NCBI GenBank assembly: GCA_030264375.1
Contig: JASCQW010000081.1
Location: 93,102,923-93,166,922, forward strand
DNA: 64,000 nt
Direction: 5' to 3'
From: Carcharhinus longimanus
Lineage: Eukaryota
How positions within the stretch are numbered: position 1 is the first letter of the stretch; every line of letters begins with the position of its first letter. Shown here one piece after another: positions 1-64,000 of this stretch. A program made the position numbers.

Positions 1-3000
1 TAGATTCCCAGCATCGACAGCATTCTGCCTTTGAACCTTTGAATCTTACATTGATAAAATGGGAAGTTAAATGGAATGAATAATTTCATATTGAACGAAA
101 GATATTTATTTACCCGCCGCTTTACATTCTGTTGGATGAAAATTGAATTAGCAAGGCCTGGCTTGGTGAAAAAAAAAGTGACGGTTGTGTGCATTAAGAT
201 AAGGCAAATACAACGGATTTTGGGATCTGAAATTAAAATAAAAATAGTTCTGATTAAGGGTCATGGCGACTTGAATAGTGAGCTCTGATGAAGGGTCACC
301 TTGACCTGTTATGGACTCTATCTTCTCCCAAGGCTTGCGGTCACACTGCTGGGACTTTCCAATATTTTCAGCTGCGTTTTACTGTCTTGTTCGTATTCCT
401 TCTTCAAACGTGGCAGACCATAATTTCACACCCGTAAGAAAAAAAGTGGTGAATTGCATCAAATAACACTCTGGGGATATGCCTTGTAGGTACACCGACA
501 GTGATTTTAAGTAAGGGTTCCAGGACTTTTACTCAGTCGAAGTGAAAGAACGGCCATTTATTTCCATGTGGCTTGCCTGGGAATTTGAAGTGCTGGTGGC
601 AGTGCCTTTCTGAAAGTTATGGTCTGGCGATTGGAATATCCTACTTGAATTATGATGATGAATTTCTGCAGAGACACCCTGTACAAGTTTTGTTATTTTG
701 ACGGATTTCGTTGGATGGGGTATATTTACCAGTTGAAGATAGACGGAAAACCGGCTTGCAGATGCAGCATTCCGCCATGTTTTCCATGATTTGGAAGTCT
801 ATGAGTCCTGCTGGAGCAACTCTATCAAGGCAGTTAGACGTTATTCAATCAGGCTGCAAACCTGTTCGTTGTAGAAGGTGAACGGCGTAGTGGCACAATT
901 GTTAGCACTGTGCCAGGGACACGTATTCAATTCTGCCTTCGTGCACTGTCTGTGCGGAGTTTGCATGTTACCTCTGTGCCGCGTGGGTTTCCTCTAGATG
1001 CTCCAGTTCCCTTCCAAACTCCACAGATATGCATGTTAGGTTGATTGGCTATGCTAAGTTGTCCTTTCGCGTTAGGGGGACAAGCAGGTTAAATAGATGG
1101 TCTTAACATGATAGGGTGGCATTTTAATAGGTGTAGGCTTGATAGACAAATGTTTCTTTCCGCACTGTAGAATCGTATTCTACGGCTGGTTTCTGGGCGA
1201 GAGTCGGCTTGAACAGCAGTTTGGTTACTCGCCACATGCTTCCAAGCCCCCTAATCAGCTGATGATATTTACGTTCCTGTCCTCGTTCTGTCTCTGGTCA
1301 TGACTGACTTCGAGGATGTTAATAGCACAGTATCTGGCAATGCTTTTGCCATTCACTGCAATGGGTGAAATTTAGGTATTCTCCCTTCTAGCAGCAGCTA
1401 GTTGACTCACAATTATTCTGCGCAAATGTTGCTTGCCAATTGTCAGCCGAGGTCTGGTAATAAGGAAAACTTGAATTTCAATTGATGGTCTTCAAAATGC
1501 TGATAATCGCTGATAATTCCAGAGGTTTAGCGCAGCGCATAACGAGTCTCACATTAAACAATGCCGGACCTATCATTATTGGGAATGGATGAGCAGTATC
1601 GTGTAACAATTGCAAACAATTTAATCAAACGTTTTTTAACTTGAAAGGATGGCGCAAACATACACAATAGCTGCAGGTATCATTGTACAAAGAAAGTGAA
1701 ATAGAGTTTGAATACATGCCCGATTATTCAGGTATCCGGTATATGCAGACATTTGCGTTCAAGCTTTTTTTAAAATATATACTGCAGTTGATGTGTGGAG
1801 AACGTAATGAGAAACAAACATTTCCAGTTGATAGAAAACTATTTATTTTCTGGTCCTCATTGCACTTTGTTGGATAACAAAAGAATAATCGTGTACGTTA
1901 TTCATCTACATTCATGAAATTAAGCTGTTGCGGGCGAATCAGAGCTTAACGTCAATCCGAAGGTGCGGGTAGCTGCTTCTAAGAAAACCCCATAGGCTAT
2001 ACACGGACGAGCTCTCAGACCCTGCGCAAACCAGCTGGCGAGGGTATTGGGAGGCATCTTTAACTTCTCTTTACACCTATCTCAGATTCCTGCCTGCTTT
2101 GAGAAGATAACCATCATCCCGGTACCAAAGAAAGCTTAGAGAGCGGGCCTGAGAGGCTATCGTCGGGGGGCTTTGACATCAATTATTATGAAATACTTCG
2201 AAAGTTATCTCATGGCACGAACCGCTTCCAGTCTTACAGATTTCCCGGATACTCTCAAGTTTTCCTAACTTTTTAACAGTCCCTCAGCGGACGCCATTAC
2301 TATGATTCCACAGTAAAACCCTGGAAAAGCAAGACACTGACGCCTATGTCAAACTCTCATTTATTGACTAAAATTCAGTCTTGAACACCATCACTCACCC
2401 CAAACTCTGTTGCCTGGGACTCGGCTCCTCCATATGTGTCTGGATCAAAGACTTCCTATGTTACAGACCACAATCAGTAAGGAAAGGCAGCAACGCCTCC
2501 TCCACGACAACTCTCAACAGAAGCGCCCAACAAGGTTGCACCCCCATCCCCTTGCATTTATTCACATATGACTGTGCGGCCAAATTTCCCTCCGACTCGA
2601 TTTCCAAGATTTCTGGCATCTCAAACAACAACGATACGGTGTTCAAGAAATAAATATAGAATCTGGTGAACTGGTGCGATGACAATGTCAGCAAAAACGA
2701 AGGAGATTATCATAGATTTCAGCAAGAGGAGTCAAGGGCATGTCCAGATCATCAGCAGCCAGCCCTGCGCCTTCCATATTGACGTTACAGTTAAGAAAGC
2801 CCACCAACTTTTCTACTTGCTCAGGAAGCTAAGGGAATTTGGGATATCACCTATGACTCTCACCAGCTTCTGAAGATGCAGCTGCAAATACAATTTTTGC
2901 TTGCTATATGATATCACGGTATGACCACAAAAAACTACGAAGCATCGTGAACGAAGTCCGGTCCGTCACGCAATCCAGCTACCCATCCATTGATTTTGTG

Positions 3001-6000
3001 TGCACTTTCTGCTGCCTCTAAAAAAACAGTCAGCACAATCAAGGATTCCAGGAACTTCAGGCATACTACCTTCCAACTTCTTCTGTCGGGAAAAGAAAGA
3101 TACAAGTATCTGAGGCCACCTTCTAACCCACTCAAGAACATATTCTTTCGTGCTATCATCAGAATTTTGAATGGTCCTGCATGATACTAAGTTTACCTAT
3201 CTCCAATCTCTGTTATGACTCTAACACTATATTCCGCACTCTCTCATTTACTTCTCTTTGTACATTATTAGTTCTACGTATAGCGCAAAAGAAATCGTCT
3301 TTTCATTGGATACTAATAAATATGACAGTAATAAATCAACTCAAAGCCATGTGAGTATACCAGTCATGCTGCTTGGAAAAACCTTCTATATTGTTGACCC
3401 AAGTATGGTGCTGGCTTGGAGGTGAAGTTGATGATCGTGTTGGCCTTATCTGTCTGCGGTGGAGCAGTCATGAGTTTTGAATGTGCTATTGCAATTGTCT
3501 TCAGAACCCTGTCCTGGGCATTTTACACATCGTGATGCCCTTTTCATATTGGCCGTGAACATTAAGGTTTGCTGGGTCAACTTTTGTGGTATTGAGGCAA
3601 AGACACCAGGCCGCTTTCTCTGCCATAACATCAATGTATTTGAGTGTTGTTGGAGCCCTAACTTTCATGGCTATTCAGTGACGCTCCTGATATGTGAATT
3701 GACACCGGGAAGGGGATGTACGTATCAGGTATAACCGAATCTCAAAGGGTATGCGAATCATCTGTGCCGGGTTGTGACATTTCATGGGGCTTAGAAATGG
3801 ATGCTGGAGGATTAGATATCGATCTGGTGGTTCTCAGTTTAGATGGGTATCGGGGCGTGGCCGCGTTTCCGGCTGGTCTATTTTAGGGGATGGGTTGGAA
3901 TGAACATTTGACGACGATTCTGAATATAGGTGAGTGAACGAAAAGTGTCAGCCTAGCAAATTGCGAAACGGAAACAGAGGGTGTGGCTTTAAGTGGGCTA
4001 GTAGGACCTGGATGTGAGGTTGGGATGGGGTTCGACTCATGTTCAGGAACCAGCTCGGAACACAATGCATTTGGAGAAGATGAGGAGTGGCGAGAGATGA
4101 GGGCTGACGTGGAGGGGTGGGGGGGGGGTGCGGTGGTGGAATGCTTTTTCCGGTGTTGCTGGGGATTCACGTTCAGTGCTCTGTTTGTGGTTTTAAAATA
4201 GTTGCATAGAAGTCAGCATTTTTCATTTTCTTTCGAACACGTCAGACTAAGGAAGTGAGGGCAGTGACATAACCATTTGAACTTCGCAACTAAAATTGTT
4301 TCGATGGGTGGTTTCTACTGCAGCAAAATTGTCGGCAAACCTTTGCCTGGGAAATTGAGAGTGGGAATTTTCAAACCATTTTTGGGGCAATCGGAGGCTG
4401 TGGTTTCAGGAGCCTACGGGCTTTCCTAACGGCATTAATTATCTTACAGTCAAGATTTTCTCTAAATCCTTAGCAAGCAGAAATTAGGGTAAGTTAAGGA
4501 ACTTGGCACAGTCAACTAATATGTTTCGTTTAGAAAACAAAGTTTCAGCAAACAACTGTTGTGAAGGCCATGCAAAACTGTGGCGATTATGCAAGGTTAA
4601 CACGAGATTTCTCCCGGCTTGGACACGGAAAAATAAGTACGACAATGTCAAGTTATAAGTGATGTTCGTGCTCAAGTCTTCTAAAACTTGGCGGCATGAA
4701 GGCTAAATATTACTGATACAATGCCGCGATAATATGGTTCACAACAGTTGGCTGCGAAACTTAGTATCCTGTCATGTCGGGCAGTAAATTTTATGGTCAG
4801 GTTGCATGCTCGTTAAAGATACTAAAGCACTGCAGCAATATCTGGTCGACTGGCCACAGCCTGTTTCCTGAAGTTCGCTGCTATGAAGTATCCCCACCCA
4901 CGTTTACAAATATTTTGCCAGTTCTATATAATTTGCCAATATTTTTTGATATTCGATGTAATAATATGAAAGACAACTGGTGTGTAGCAATTACTTTGCT
5001 ATTGCTTTGCTGAGGCATGTGAAAGTGATAACGCTGCTGCAAAATATCAAGAATAACATTGGAAAGTTGATTTTAAACAAAAGAAAATCGGATGAAATGC
5101 ATCTTTTCAATTGTTAGCACATTTCATCGATCGAAAACTTGTTGATGAATAAATCCCAAGTGCCCCGTCGGAAAAGAAACCTGTAGGTTATTGACAGAGG
5201 CAAGAGAGGAGTTTGCTCGGGTCCTGACAAAGACTTTGTACCCTGGATAGCCCCTGAAGAAGTCACAGGGTACTGGAAAGTATCTAATGTTTTTCCTCTG
5301 TCCAAAAAAAGAACAAGGTATAATCAAGGATATTATCGAACGTAGAACATAGATTTAATAAATTGGTTAATAAATTTGTAGGTGACACAAATATGGGTAG
5401 AGTTACAGATAGCGCAGAAAGTTGTAAAAATATACAGCACAATATGGATCTGTTGCAGGTTTGGTCAGGGAAATGGCAGATGGAGGTTAATCTAGGTAGG
5501 ACTGAAGTGTTGCCTTTCAGAAATCAAATCTCAATATTAAGTACTCAGTTAACGGCAGGAACATGTTCAGCATTGATGTACAGAGGCATCATGTGGCTGC
5601 AATCCATAGCTCTCTGAAAGTGATGAAACAGATTGATAAATAACAAAAAAATGTGGATGGCAAGCTTGTCTTTTGCAGTCGTGGCACTGAGAACAAGAGT
5701 AATGATGCCACGTTTCAATATTATGAAATTTGGTTCAGCCGCACTTAGAATAGTATGTATGGGAACGACGTGGAAGATTTGGAAAGGGTGAAAAATAAAT
5801 TTACCAGATTGGATTAAAAGGTATCAGCTACACGAACAAGCTGGACGATCTTGGCGTATTTTCTCTGGAATGGCGGAGTCTGAGGAGAGAACTAGTGGCT
5901 GTCTTTAAAAAATGTCCGAGGCATACATAAGTTTCAGGGTCGAAATATCTTACACAGATCTGAAATGGTTATTCCTAGGGGGCATGCATTTAAGGTGAGG

Positions 6001-63600: not shown

Positions 63601-64000
63601 ATTATGGTATATTATATTTTTTCTCTACGTCATCAACCCTTATGCCTGACATGAATACATGGACATACGTACCTATGAATTCTTCTTGCTGTGTGCCTGC
63701 GACTGGAACGTAAGAAAATCATGAGAAAAATAAAAACAGAACATGCAGAACATTTTTCCCCCGATCAATGTAACTATATGAAAAATGTAAGCAAAAAGAT
63801 GTTCCCTATAGCAATTAGTACACACGTCAGTCCAACAATAATGCCTTTAGAATAGTGAATATCACAATGTCAACAACATCTCCTTGGCAACCTGTTTGGT
63901 GCTTTTCCACGCAAGTTAACATTCCCATAATAGTAATTCATACATCGTATTCTTTGAAAATACGTTTCTTAAACCCACAATGAAACTGGAAAACCTGCGA

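What the first reader, a model, noticed from the sequence alone, without database searches (positions are those of the whole stretch)
1..64000. CpG paradox: the most decayed repeats are the richest in CpG, pointing to two mutational regimes in one window
Seen: homologous Rex1 segments behave opposite to the usual vertebrate pattern. The well-preserved copy in the WDR76 island (37411-37740) has 2 CpG in 330 bp and reads caatgcctctac. The far more diverged copy (12451-12780) has 16 CpG in 330 bp and keeps caacgcctctac. Unique sequence shows the same contrast: 1 CpG in 36301-36600 against 14 in 8881-9180 (hand counts on selected windows). Established: germline-methylated repeats lose CpG with age through 5mC deamination. 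Inference: most of this window evolved for a long time as a gene-poor, AT-rich domain with little germline CpG methylation, with high substitution and indel load and expanded poly-A/T runs. Possible settings are a hypomethylated late-replicating block, a sex-limited or B-chromosome region, or a non-recombining region.
[Added by the scan's program, not by the reader: the finding's places include an assembly gap (unread letters, written N; its length is only estimated) at 18836 to 18935, 22704 to 22803, 38181 to 38280, 42571 to 42670, 52138 to 52237, 54414 to 54513. Whether the letters on both sides are continuous or in frame is not known: test that first.]
Basis: partly seen in the sequence, partly recalled or inferred. 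Interest (0 to 1): 0.7.

Follow-up and report, generated by a model that had tools for sequence, protein, structure and literature searches.

The report
Two CpG-decay regimes in shark DNA
A stretch of shark DNA around part of the WDR76 gene switches sharply between old repeat debris that has kept most of its CpG and a few patches, mainly younger jumping-gene copies and the exon cluster, that have lost it, which hints that inherited DNA methylation has acted very unevenly here.

Summary
After base-composition correction the window splits into two states (HMM). Five segments (82%) sit at CpG o/e 0.70-0.76. Four patches sit at 0.14-0.33; the largest is 30801-39100, around three intact WDR76 exons.

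The window is shark DNA. AG/CT, an independent marker of long-term methyl-CpG decay, differs the same way (1.17 vs 0.93).

Part of the "paradox" dissolves. Younger LINE copies arrive already CpG-purged: Arg is AGR 61: CGN 1. They are CpG-poor even outside the block.

A positional effect remains. SINE-like copies in the block keep 1 of 17 ancestral CpGs, against 23 of 54 outside, and carry different decay products. Relative loss rate is 13 vs 2.4. This matches a mutation model with multiplier about 8 vs about 2.

One repeat family shows no contrast.

Both block borders lie inside contigs. Whether the CpG-rich state is this genome's norm or a special domain could not be tested. I found no shark baseline and have no methylation data. 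Nothing supports a B or sex-limited chromosome.

The parts
30801..39100 (.). Main low-CpG block (HMM low state): 102 CpG observed vs 350.4 expected, o/e 0.29. AG/CT 1.17, CC/GG 1.22, GpC 0.88. It is a nest of younger LINE/SINE pieces around the WDR76 exon cluster.
   Evidence: Both borders lie inside contigs (22804-38180 and 38281-42570).
1..17100 (.). CpG-rich matrix segment 1, o/e 0.76: old repeat relics and unannotated DNA.
17101..18100 (.). Low-CpG patch 1, o/e 0.33. Holds a repeat (17243-17491, 71% identical to 21938-22186). The importin-alpha exon relic at 17951-18055 lies inside its upper (right-hand) edge.
18101..22300 (.). CpG-rich matrix segment 2, o/e 0.70.
22301..22900 (.). Low-CpG patch 2, o/e 0.14: a well-preserved EN+RT LINE piece (22264-22701 +, 70% identity over 141 aa, 1 stop), cut by the gap at 22704.
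22901..30800 (.). CpG-rich matrix segment 3, o/e 0.73.
39101..41000 (.). CpG-rich matrix segment 4, o/e 0.74. It separates the block from patch 4.
41001..42400 (.). Low-CpG patch 4, o/e 0.32: a LINE copy (41044-42116 +) that is 80% identical in DNA to the block copy at 32901-33602.
42401..64000 (.). CpG-rich matrix segment 5, o/e 0.74.
36769..36861 (-). WDR76 exon (about aa 184-213 of a 562-aa shark reference). AG acceptor and GT donor.
36198..36241 (-). WDR76 short exon (…QGEMRIKEKQPAELK-). cag acceptor, GTAAGT donor. Borders read by eye from the print.
35928..36087 (-). WDR76 WD40 exon (YKSSLNKM…GLWNL), 85-91% identical to five galeomorph/squalomorph sharks (79% to Heptranchias). The 3' border is uncertain by about 6 bases.
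37409..37789 (+). Rex1-type LINE piece in the block (PF09004 domain): 2 CpG, o/e 0.13, and two Arg(CGC)->Cys(TGC) changes.
12264..13074 (+). Decayed Rex1-type copy in the matrix, o/e 0.77 (0.99 in 12451-12780). It keeps 3 ancestral CpG codons and has gained about 3-4 new CpGs.
31654..32068 (-). Young EN+RT LINE 3' part (64-72% identity, 0 stops), o/e 0.20. 92% identical in DNA to 38282-38559.
38284..38712 (-). Young EN+RT LINE piece (70% identity over 143 aa, 0 stops), o/e 0.25.
32160..33521 (+). Middle-aged EN+RT LINE copy (41-45% identity, 2-4 stops per HSP), o/e 0.18.
35260..35570 (+). SINE-like repeat copy in the block: 1 of 9 ancestral CpG sites kept, non-CpG mismatch 0.128.
34330..34500 (-). 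SINE-like repeat copy in the block: 0 of 8 ancestral CpG sites kept, non-CpG mismatch 0.252.
13315..13550 (-). SINE-like copy in the matrix: 8 of 9 ancestral CpG sites kept at non-CpG mismatch 0.244. Matched control for 34330-34500.
30500..30850 (+). SINE-like copy straddling the left border of the block: 2 of 10 ancestral CpG sites kept, the lowest retention fraction among the six outside copies counted. It has an internal 31-base duplication at 30723-30786.
17951..18055 (-). Importin-alpha (alpha1/5/6/7 group) last-exon relic with an in-frame stop directly after …HENQEI.

Best explanation
The window is shark DNA that most probably lies within very large introns of WDR76 and around one cluster of its exons. 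Its CpG landscape is a two-state mosaic.

State H (82% of the window) is ancient, mostly unrecognisable repeat debris. It sits at a homogeneous, apparently stationary CpG o/e of about 0.74. CpG sites there are lost hardly faster than they would be with no methylation effect (CpG-transition multiplier m about 1-2).

State L (18%, four patches) sits at about 0.29 and carries the AG/CT and CC/GG enrichment typical of long-term methyl-CpG decay (m about 8, mammal-like).

Two processes make state L.
(i) Import. The younger LINE lineages had already shed nearly all CpG before these copies were inserted, so a well-preserved copy is CpG-poor from birth wherever it lands. The old families started with about half of their Arg codons as CGN.
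(ii) Decay in place. Inside the 8-kb block, CpGs of SINE-like copies, of the unannotated sequence and of the short WDR76 introns were destroyed locally.

Shown here: the two states, their borders, the import effect, the in-place loss in the block, and the weak loss outside.

Inferred: the cause is uneven germline methylation. I propose dense methylation aimed at the nest of younger retroelements and the exon cluster, spreading over the few kb between them. The inert relic DNA would then be only weakly methylated, or its methylation would have had little mutational effect.
For: Two states: HMM rates are 0.29 and 0.74. The five high segments are at 0.70-0.76 and the four low ones at 0.14-0.33. 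The high state is not over-dispersed: 96 bins of 500 bp give chi2/df 0.77.

Independent marker: AG/CT is 1.17 vs 0.93, CC/GG 1.22 vs 1.05, and GpC 0.88 vs 1.07. For each, the block lies outside the range of 7 outside chunks. The contrast holds in non-LINE sequence (CpG 0.33 with AG/CT 1.08, vs 0.73 with 0.90). Pearson r between CpG and AG/CT over 32 two-kb bins is -0.80. AG/CT tracks CpG depletion across 753 vertebrate genomes with r = -0.92 (10.64898/2026.09.02.747768, section 19 read).

Import: at reference-Arg positions, preserved low-state LINE copies have AGR 61, CGN 1, TGN/CAN 10. Decayed high-state copies have AGR 34, CGN 18, TGN/CAN 19. Fisher p = 1.3e-6 for CGN vs AGR. Of LINE bases with at least 55% identity, 82% are in the low state, against 20% of those below 40%. 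Such copies are CpG-poor outside the block as well: 12 CpG vs 45.1 expected, o/e 0.27.

Decay in place: across 10 ancestral CpG columns of a SINE-like family (8 of 9 copies used), block copies keep 1 of 17 and 14 of the 16 lost are TG/CA. Outside copies keep 23 of 54. Fisher p = 0.0068. A matched pair at non-CpG mismatch 0.25 and 0.24 keeps 0 of 8 vs 8 of 9, p = 4e-4. At the three columns where CG, TG and CA all occur, the two block copies carry opposite products. Kappa is 13.0 (CI 5.7-29.8) inside and 2.4 (1.6-3.5) outside.

Other block sequence: unannotated block sequence has 51 CpG vs 157.2 expected (p = 8e-12 against 0.74). The repeat-free WDR76 introns have 5 vs 15.2 expected (p = 0.03).

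Consistency: the forward model gives o/e 0.73 at m = 2 (kappa 3.5) and 0.29 at m = 8 (kappa 11).

Context from passages only: active TE copies carry more sperm methylation than all copies in axolotl (PMC7618676). CpG depletion is strongest inside TEs and weakens with distance (same preprint, section 21).
Against: There is no methylation measurement, so the cause is inferred from sequence footprints alone.

The in-place argument rests on only two SINE-like copies, about 3.7 kb of unannotated sequence and 604 bases of intron.

The ancestral CpG columns were defined by CG being present in at least 2 copies, which favours retention in the more numerous outside copies.

One family contradicts a strict positional rule. 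The Rex1 3' region copy in the block keeps 2 of 6 ancestral CpGs, against 3 of 6 and 1 of 6 outside, with o/e 0.51 vs 0.53 and 0.39.

Within outside-only or inside-only LINE HSPs, preservation does not predict CpG o/e (rho -0.23 and -0.02).

TG+CA o/e is no higher in the block (1.20 vs 1.24), although the model predicts 1.23 vs 1.09.

Published somatic methylomes describe the elephant shark as methylated throughout, including LINEs and SINEs (PMC5437953, passages). That fits poorly with weakly methylated relic DNA.

Identity to a foreign reference protein is a rough proxy for age.
Confidence: 0.5

Rival explanations
1. Most of the window belongs to a special large chromosomal domain (late-replicating and hypomethylated, pericentromeric, sex-limited, B-chromosome or non-recombining) that escaped germline methylation for a long time. 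The WDR76 block is an island of ordinary genome inside it.
For: The matrix has very weak CpG decay (kappa 2.4, o/e 0.74, AG/CT 0.93), lower GC (39.2% vs 42.2%) and more A/T runs. Its o/e is well above the roughly 0.44 median given for ectothermic fishes and amphibians (10.64898/2026.09.02.747768, passages). Regional 5mC minima do exist in an elasmobranch: the putative centromere of red stingray chromosome 4 (10.1101/2025.06.08.657570, passages). Two unrelated gene pieces (WDR76 exons and an importin-alpha relic) lie 18 kb apart with no other exons of either gene.
Against: The WDR76 exons are intact, canonically spliced and conserved at the orthologue level, which suggests an ordinary expressed gene with large introns. 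A randomly scanned window is more likely to show the genome's common state than a rare one. No data on depth, sex, replication timing or chromosome position are available. WDR76 has 0 occurrences in the 12 listed papers of the sex-chromosome search.
Confidence: 0.15
2. Pure import and age mosaic. There is no positional difference in mutation. Every low-CpG patch is simply younger inserted sequence that was CpG-poor at its source. Everything drifts upward to one genome-wide equilibrium near 0.74.
For: The three smaller low patches are discrete repeats or LINE copies embedded in the matrix. LINEs are born CpG-poor. Outside the block, CpG o/e rises with decay class: 0.27, 0.57, 0.61, then 0.73 for unannotated sequence. 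The old Rex1 copy has gained about 3-4 new CpGs. The Rex1 3' family shows no positional contrast. The block borders fall near the ends of LINE copies.
Against: The SINE-like family was CpG-rich at birth, yet its two block copies lost 16 of 17 sites, with discordant products, at no greater overall divergence than outside copies that keep 43%. The repeat-free WDR76 introns and exons were not inserted, but have o/e 0.33 and 0.31. Active LINE lineages could only become so CpG-poor under a stronger decay regime than the one seen in the matrix, so two regimes are needed anyway.
Confidence: 0.2
3. Artefact. The contrast comes from assembly chimerism, collapsed repeats or consensus errors in poorly covered contigs.
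For: The assembly is fragmented: 7 gaps in 64 kb, and 6 of the 7 abut LINE sequence. Across gap 38181-38280 the flanks are two different LINE copies. The A/T run spectrum is odd: a plateau at lengths 6-9 and none above 10.
Against: Both borders of the main block lie in uninterrupted sequence. Random errors cannot produce codon-consistent patterns (AGR vs CGN use, Arg->Cys changes) or a coordinated AG/CT shift. The matrix still holds alignable, frame-traceable LINE relics.
Confidence: 0.05

Closest known systems
TE-centred CpG depletion in vertebrate genomes (Zhou et al. 2020, PMC7431005, passages seen; Bobbo et al. preprint 10.64898/2026.09.02.747768, sections 19 and 21 read)
   Same: Recognisable transposable elements are the most CpG-depleted sequence and CpG o/e rises away from them. 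AG/CT rises as CpG falls. The attributed cause is methylation-mediated silencing and its spread into flanks.
   Different: The amplitude and sharpness are greater here: 0.29 vs 0.74 in two clean states, against medians of 0.19 inside TEs and 0.39 beyond 5 kb in 11 genomes. The age trend is reversed relative to Alu-type elements. Here old LINE relics are CpG-rich and young copies CpG-poor, because the LINE lineages themselves lost CpG over time.
Age-dependent CpG decay of mammalian Alu/L1 copies (as described in PMC7431005, passages seen)
   Same: CpG is replaced mainly by TG/CA: 14 of the 16 lost sites in block SINE-like copies. Arg CGC becomes Cys TGC in the Rex1-type copy.
   Different: In mammals, young copies are CpG-rich and old ones are poor, at a low equilibrium near 0.2. 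Here the old background sits at 0.74 and loses CpG at about the no-methylation rate.
Regional hypomethylation in an elasmobranch chromosome (red stingray chromosome 4 putative centromere; 10.1101/2025.06.08.657570, passages seen)
   Same: It shows that elasmobranch genomes can have regions of low 5mC.
   Different: That case is at megabase scale, is linked to the centromere and was measured directly from polymerase kinetics. Here the evidence is only a sequence footprint, at a scale of 1-20 kb, beside an intact gene.
Mosaic or intermediate methylation with bimodal CpG o/e (invertebrates, lamprey; 10.1101/033233, passages seen)
   Same: CpG o/e is bimodal, with the depleted class tied to exons and elements that are targets of methylation.
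   Different: Jawed vertebrates, including the elephant shark, are reported as methylated throughout (PMC5437953, passages). Membership would need germline methylomes of this shark.

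Membership tests
Methyl-CpG deamination footprint (vertebrate type), applied to the block | CpG o/e far below 1 after correcting for local C and G content | tested here: met
   102 observed vs 350.4 expected, o/e 0.29. Unannotated part 0.32-0.33.
Methyl-CpG deamination footprint (vertebrate type), applied to the block | Ancestral CpG sites replaced mainly by TpG/CpA | tested here: met
   In the block SINE-like copies, 14 of 16 lost sites are TG/CA. The Rex1-type copy has 2 Arg CGC -> Cys TGC changes.
Methyl-CpG deamination footprint (vertebrate type), applied to the block | Second-order AG/CT enrichment | tested here: met
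   AG/CT 1.17 vs 0.93 outside; r = -0.80 with CpG over 32 bins.
Methyl-CpG deamination footprint (vertebrate type), applied to the block | TpG/CpA excess greater than in the CpG-rich compartment | tested here: not met
   CA/TG is 1.20 in the block and 1.24 outside. The preprint calls this coordinate a poor marker.
Methyl-CpG deamination footprint (vertebrate type), applied to the block | 5-methylcytosine present in germ cells at these sites | not testable with these tools
   No reads or methylomes are available.
   Five segments at 0.70-0.76; chi2/df 0.77 over 96 bins. Only 85 of 6380 sliding 200-base windows reach borderline island criteria, at GC 0.49-0.51.
   Kappa 2.4 (CI 1.6-3.5) against a model baseline of 2.3-2.4 at m = 1. 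18 CGN remain against 19 TGN/CAN at reference-Arg positions of copies with about 30% protein identity.
   No other DNA of this genome is available. No shark CpG o/e value was found in searches.
   Only WDR76 exons and one importin-alpha relic were found, but the WDR76 exons look functional. Replication timing, read depth and chromosome position are not testable.
Rex1-type non-LTR retrotransposon (family name recalled, given by no call) | Reverse transcriptase followed by the C-terminal domain that Pfam lists as PF09004 | tested here: met
   PF09004 hit with E = 5.5e-9 in 37409-37738. Relatives carry PF00078+PF09004, and some also PF03372. RT-region HSPs are present in the copies at 1927-3268 and 58507-60258.
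WDR76 gene | Exons matching named WDR76 proteins, in order, with canonical splice sites | tested here: met
   11 hits, 10 of them named WDR76 or WDR76-like in sharks and rays. Three colinear exons covering aa about 184-281. AG/GT borders and a correct reading across the junction. The exons were handled one by one; the joined model was not built or searched.
WDR76 gene | Complete coding region present | tested here: not met
   No other exon lies within 35.9 kb on one side or 27.1 kb on the other. The rest must lie outside the window or be absent.

The most novel reading that the evidence does not exclude
In this shark the germline does not methylate, or does not mutate, its DNA uniformly. The ancient relic DNA that fills giant introns escapes methyl-CpG decay almost completely (m about 1-2). 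Exon clusters and younger retroelements are hit at mammal-like strength (m about 8). If so, elasmobranch genomes are genome-wide two-state mosaics, an 'intermediate', target-directed methylation regime persisting in a jawed vertebrate. Their LINE lineages have responded by purging CpG from their own sequence.
Probability: 0.2. Interest if true: 0.75.

Novelty: new variant of a known kind. Interest (0 to 1): 0.5.

Why it matters
Jawed vertebrates are usually described as globally methylated, with CpG decaying everywhere except at CpG islands. This window shows 53 kb of non-island DNA where CpG has decayed at close to the unmethylated rate, next to patches decaying at a mammal-like rate.

If the pattern is genome-wide in sharks, three things follow. 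Repeat ages estimated with CpG-corrected Kimura distances would need revising. It would explain why old repeats are CpG-rich and young ones CpG-poor. It would also make the origin of vertebrate global methylation testable in a slowly evolving lineage.

If it is local, it marks an unusual chromatin domain beside a DNA-damage-response gene.

Tried and rejected
Rfam at gathering thresholds: 0 matches in the window.

Tandem repeats: 7 rows, all short, which cannot account for the CpG pattern.

Self-similarity at the DNA level covers only 10.2% of the window (27 HSP pairs), so copy-versus-copy dating has limited reach.

tblastn of the block Rex1 ORF against the outer copy returned nothing. I used the DNA alignment instead.

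Pfam on 16 ORFs gave 2 hits. Pfam on 116 of the 126 ORFs of at least 75 aa gave one hit above cutoff (Arm_3) and two chance hits below cutoff (MDM31_MDM32, PPPI_inhib). Ten block ORFs were left out; 5 of them had been scanned. So no other gene or TE protein domain was recognised in the flanks.

CpG islands as the source of high CpG: rejected.

Contig-level quality difference as the cause: rejected, because both block borders lie inside contigs.

A processed importin-alpha retrocopy as the content of patch 1: not supported, since no Arm repeats lie upstream in any frame.

Shark CpG o/e baseline: not found in searches, nor in the passages. Supplementary tables of PMC7431005, which may list chondrichthyan values, could not be opened, and bioRxiv supplements are closed.

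No other shark DNA could therefore be compared.

The joined WDR76 exon model was deliberately not built or searched.

Full report
WHAT THE WINDOW IS

The ORF at 35742-36119 (-) matches WDR76 or WDR76-like proteins of sharks and rays. There were 11 hits among 91 candidates, and the best were Heterodontus and Mustelus. tblastn with those proteins finds exactly three colinear exons (36769-36861, about 36198-36241, about 35928-36087, minus strand) covering about aa 184-281. No other exon lies within 27-36 kb on either side.

The exons have AG/GT borders and read correctly across the junction (…ELKK|YKSSL…). Taken one by one, they are as similar to other sharks as those sharks are to each other: exon C is 85-91% identical to five sharks (79% to Heptranchias), where the shark references range from 72 to 94% among themselves. 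The window is therefore shark DNA, probably one exon cluster of a live WDR76 gene with very large introns on both sides. It is not human.

CHECK OF THE OBSERVATION

All four hand counts are exact. The two Rex1-type segments are homologous.

- Window-wide CpG o/e is 0.64.
- The best two-change-point block, 31251-39000, has 93 CpG against 323.6 expected (0.29), compared with 0.71 outside, log-likelihood gain 47.9.
- A two-state HMM on 100-base bins converges on rates of 0.29 and 0.74.
- The high segments are 1-17100 (0.76), 18101-22300 (0.70), 22901-30800 (0.73), 39101-41000 (0.74) and 42401-64000 (0.74).
- The low patches are 17101-18100 (0.33), 22301-22900 (0.14), 30801-39100 (0.29) and 41001-42400 (0.32).
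- The high state is homogeneous: chi2/df is 0.77 over 96 bins of 500 bases.
- The high state is not made of CpG islands: 85 of 6380 sliding windows are borderline, at GC 0.49-0.51.

GAPS

The scan's program asked for this test first. There are seven gaps, including one at 55698-55797 that was not in its list.

- The borders of the main block lie in uninterrupted sequence, inside contigs 22804-38180 and 38281-42570.
- Six of the seven gaps abut LINE sequence within 12 bases, so contigs break in high-copy repeats.
- Gap 38181-38280: the flanks are two different LINE copies. Their protein coordinates overlap (aa 904-967 vs 818-959) and their identities differ (45% vs 70%), so the sequence is not continuous there.
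- Gap 54414-54513: one old copy continues colinearly (aa 66-122, then 125-164), so the true gap is probably near zero.
- Gap 52138-52237: the right flank is LINE aa 491-543 and the left flank matches LINE 3' non-coding sequence (87% to 31559-31628). If this is one copy, about 1.4 kb is hidden.
- Gaps 18836, 22704 and 55698: a LINE copy stops at the gap and does not resume.
- Gap 42571: nothing can be said.

No N was filled in.

A SECOND, INDEPENDENT SIGNATURE

The block and the rest differ in the whole dinucleotide profile:

| Coordinate | Block | Outside |
|---|---|---|
| AG/CT | 1.17 | 0.93 |
| CC/GG | 1.22 | 1.05 |
| GpC | 0.88 | 1.07 |

For each, the block falls outside the range of seven outside chunks. 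The contrast persists in sequence with no LINE or exon annotation (CpG 0.33 with AG/CT 1.08, vs 0.73 with 0.90). Over 32 two-kb bins, CpG and AG/CT correlate at r = -0.80.

A 2026 preprint reports AG/CT as the strongest between-genome correlate of CpG depletion (r = -0.92 over 753 vertebrate genomes). It presents AG/CT as a second-order result of methyl-CpG mutability (10.64898/2026.09.02.747768, sections 19 and 21 read). TG+CA o/e does not differ in the expected direction (1.20 vs 1.24). The same preprint calls that coordinate a poor marker.

WHY WELL-PRESERVED COPIES ARE CpG-POOR

I used 76 reference proteins in a local tblastn:
- 73 Rex1-type proteins, found among 181 candidates.
- 3 of an EN+RT LINE that I call CR1-like from memory, found among 610 candidates.

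Bases in fragments with at least 55% identity to a reference are 82% in the low state. Those below 40% identity are 20% in the low state.

Preserved copies are CpG-poor outside the block too: o/e 0.27 (12 vs 45.1 expected) outside and 0.28 inside.

Codon use explains it. At positions where the reference has Arg:
- Preserved low-state copies have AGR 61, CGN 1, TGN/CAN 10.
- Decayed high-state copies have AGR 34, CGN 18, TGN/CAN 19.
- Fisher p = 1.3e-6.

The younger LINE lineages were therefore already purged of CpG when these copies inserted. The old lineages began with roughly half of their Arg codons as CGN, and about half of those still survive at only about 30% protein identity. This removes the paradoxical part of "well preserved yet CpG-poor".

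The old Rex1 copy is CpG-rich partly by retention (3 sites) and partly by new gains (about 3-4 sites). That is the behaviour expected of sequence near an equilibrium with little CpG penalty.

IS THERE ALSO A POSITIONAL EFFECT?

Yes, on limited evidence. A SINE-like family (my label; no tRNA head was tested) has 9 copies. I used 8 and dropped one short copy. Results over 10 inferred ancestral CpG columns:

- The two block copies keep 1 of 17, and 14 of the 16 lost are TG/CA.
- The six outside copies keep 23 of 54 (Fisher p = 0.0068). Without the copy that straddles the border the count is 21 of 44 (p = 0.0024).
- That border copy has the lowest retention fraction of the outside copies (2 of 10).
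- At equal non-CpG mismatch (0.252 vs 0.244), the block copy keeps 0 of 8 and the copy at 13.3 kb keeps 8 of 9 (p = 4e-4).
- In the three columns where CG, TG and CA all occur, the two block copies carry opposite products. The losses were therefore independent and not inherited from a CpG-free source.
- Relative loss rates are kappa 13.0 (CI 5.7-29.8) inside and 2.4 (1.6-3.5) outside.

Other block sequence points the same way. The repeat-free WDR76 introns have 5 CpG against 15.2 expected. The unannotated block sequence has 51 against 157.2.

A simple forward mutation model links the two kinds of measurement. A stationary o/e of 0.73 needs a CpG-transition multiplier of about 2 (kappa 3.5-4). 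An o/e of 0.29 needs about 8 (kappa 11-14). With no CpG effect at all, kappa is 2.3-2.4.

EVIDENCE AGAINST

- The Rex1 3' family shows no positional contrast: 2 of 6 sites kept in the block copy vs 3 of 6 and 1 of 6 outside, with o/e 0.51 vs 0.53 and 0.39.
- Within outside-only or inside-only HSPs, preservation does not predict CpG.
- The choice of ancestral CpG columns favours the outside copies.
- Only two block SINE-like copies exist.
- Identity to a foreign protein is a rough clock.
- Somatic methylomes describe the elephant shark as methylated throughout, LINEs and SINEs included (PMC5437953, passages).

INTERPRETATION

The window is a two-state mosaic. The CpG-rich state is old relic DNA that has lost CpG at close to the unmethylated rate. 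The CpG-poor state combines imported, CpG-purged LINE copies with an 8-kb block in which CpG was also destroyed in place.

I infer uneven germline methylation: dense on the nest of younger retroelements and the exon cluster, spreading across the few kb between them, and weak on the relic DNA. No call shows this directly. Two sources fit the inference, from passages or single sections only. In axolotl sperm, active TE copies are more methylated than all copies (PMC7618676). CpG depletion is reported to fade with distance from TEs.

The proposed settings (late-replicating block, sex-limited or B chromosome, non-recombining region) are untested, and "gene-poor" is doubtful.

WHAT STAYS OPEN

I could not learn whether o/e of about 0.74 is this genome's normal state. 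The only figure I found is a median of about 0.44 for ectothermic fishes and amphibians (passages). I found no shark value.

Noticed in passing
17951-18055 (-): An isolated importin-alpha exon relic of the alpha1/5/6/7 group. It matches Pfam Arm_3 (E = 6e-10) and is about 88-90% identical over 33 aa to solved importin-alpha chains. A cag acceptor precedes it; an in-frame stop and a degraded tail follow. No Arm repeats lie upstream in any frame. It lies in low-CpG patch 1.
   Followed up: partly
55698-55797: A seventh 100-N gap that is not in the list added by the scan's program (700 N in all).
   Followed up: yes
gaps at 18836, 22704, 38181, 52138, 54414, 55698: Six of the seven gaps abut LINE sequence within 12 bases, so contigs break in high-copy repeats. 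Gap 38181 joins two different LINE copies. Gap 54414 is probably near zero length. Gap 52138 may hide about 1.4 kb of one LINE copy.
   Followed up: partly
whole window; runs listed: The A/T homopolymer spectrum outside the block has a plateau (length 6: 38, 7: 27, 8: 25, 9: 30), then 10 runs of length 10 and none longer. The block also has none above 10. This may be a slippage shoulder combined with a technology or assembler cap. It cannot be tested without reads.
   Followed up: partly
31781-32056 and 38282-38559: Two direct copies of the same young LINE 3' part, 92% identical and in the same orientation, lie near the two ends of the low-CpG block. I did not resolve whether they are independent insertions or a local duplication.
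   Followed up: partly
870-1085, 6440-6600, 13315-13550, 14230-14470, 30500-30850, 34330-34500, 35260-35570, 47590-47690, 53040-53300: A SINE-like repeat family with about 9 copies in 64 kb. Several of the borderline CpG-island-like windows (801-1080, 13271-13480, 30641-30870, 52931-53300) coincide with its outside copies.
   Followed up: partly
29471-29630; 52368-52455; 45580-45625; 29124-29152: Small tandem arrays: an 80-base unit x2 (87% match), a 30-base unit x2.9 next to a LINE piece and a gap, (TA)23 and (AAT)9.7.
   Followed up: no
2983-3345, 12781-13140, 33949-34319: The 3' region attached to three Rex1-type copies is CpG-poor in all three (o/e 0.39-0.53), even where the adjoining coding part of the same old copy is CpG-rich (12451-12780, o/e 0.99). 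CpG content is therefore uneven within single old elements.
   Followed up: partly
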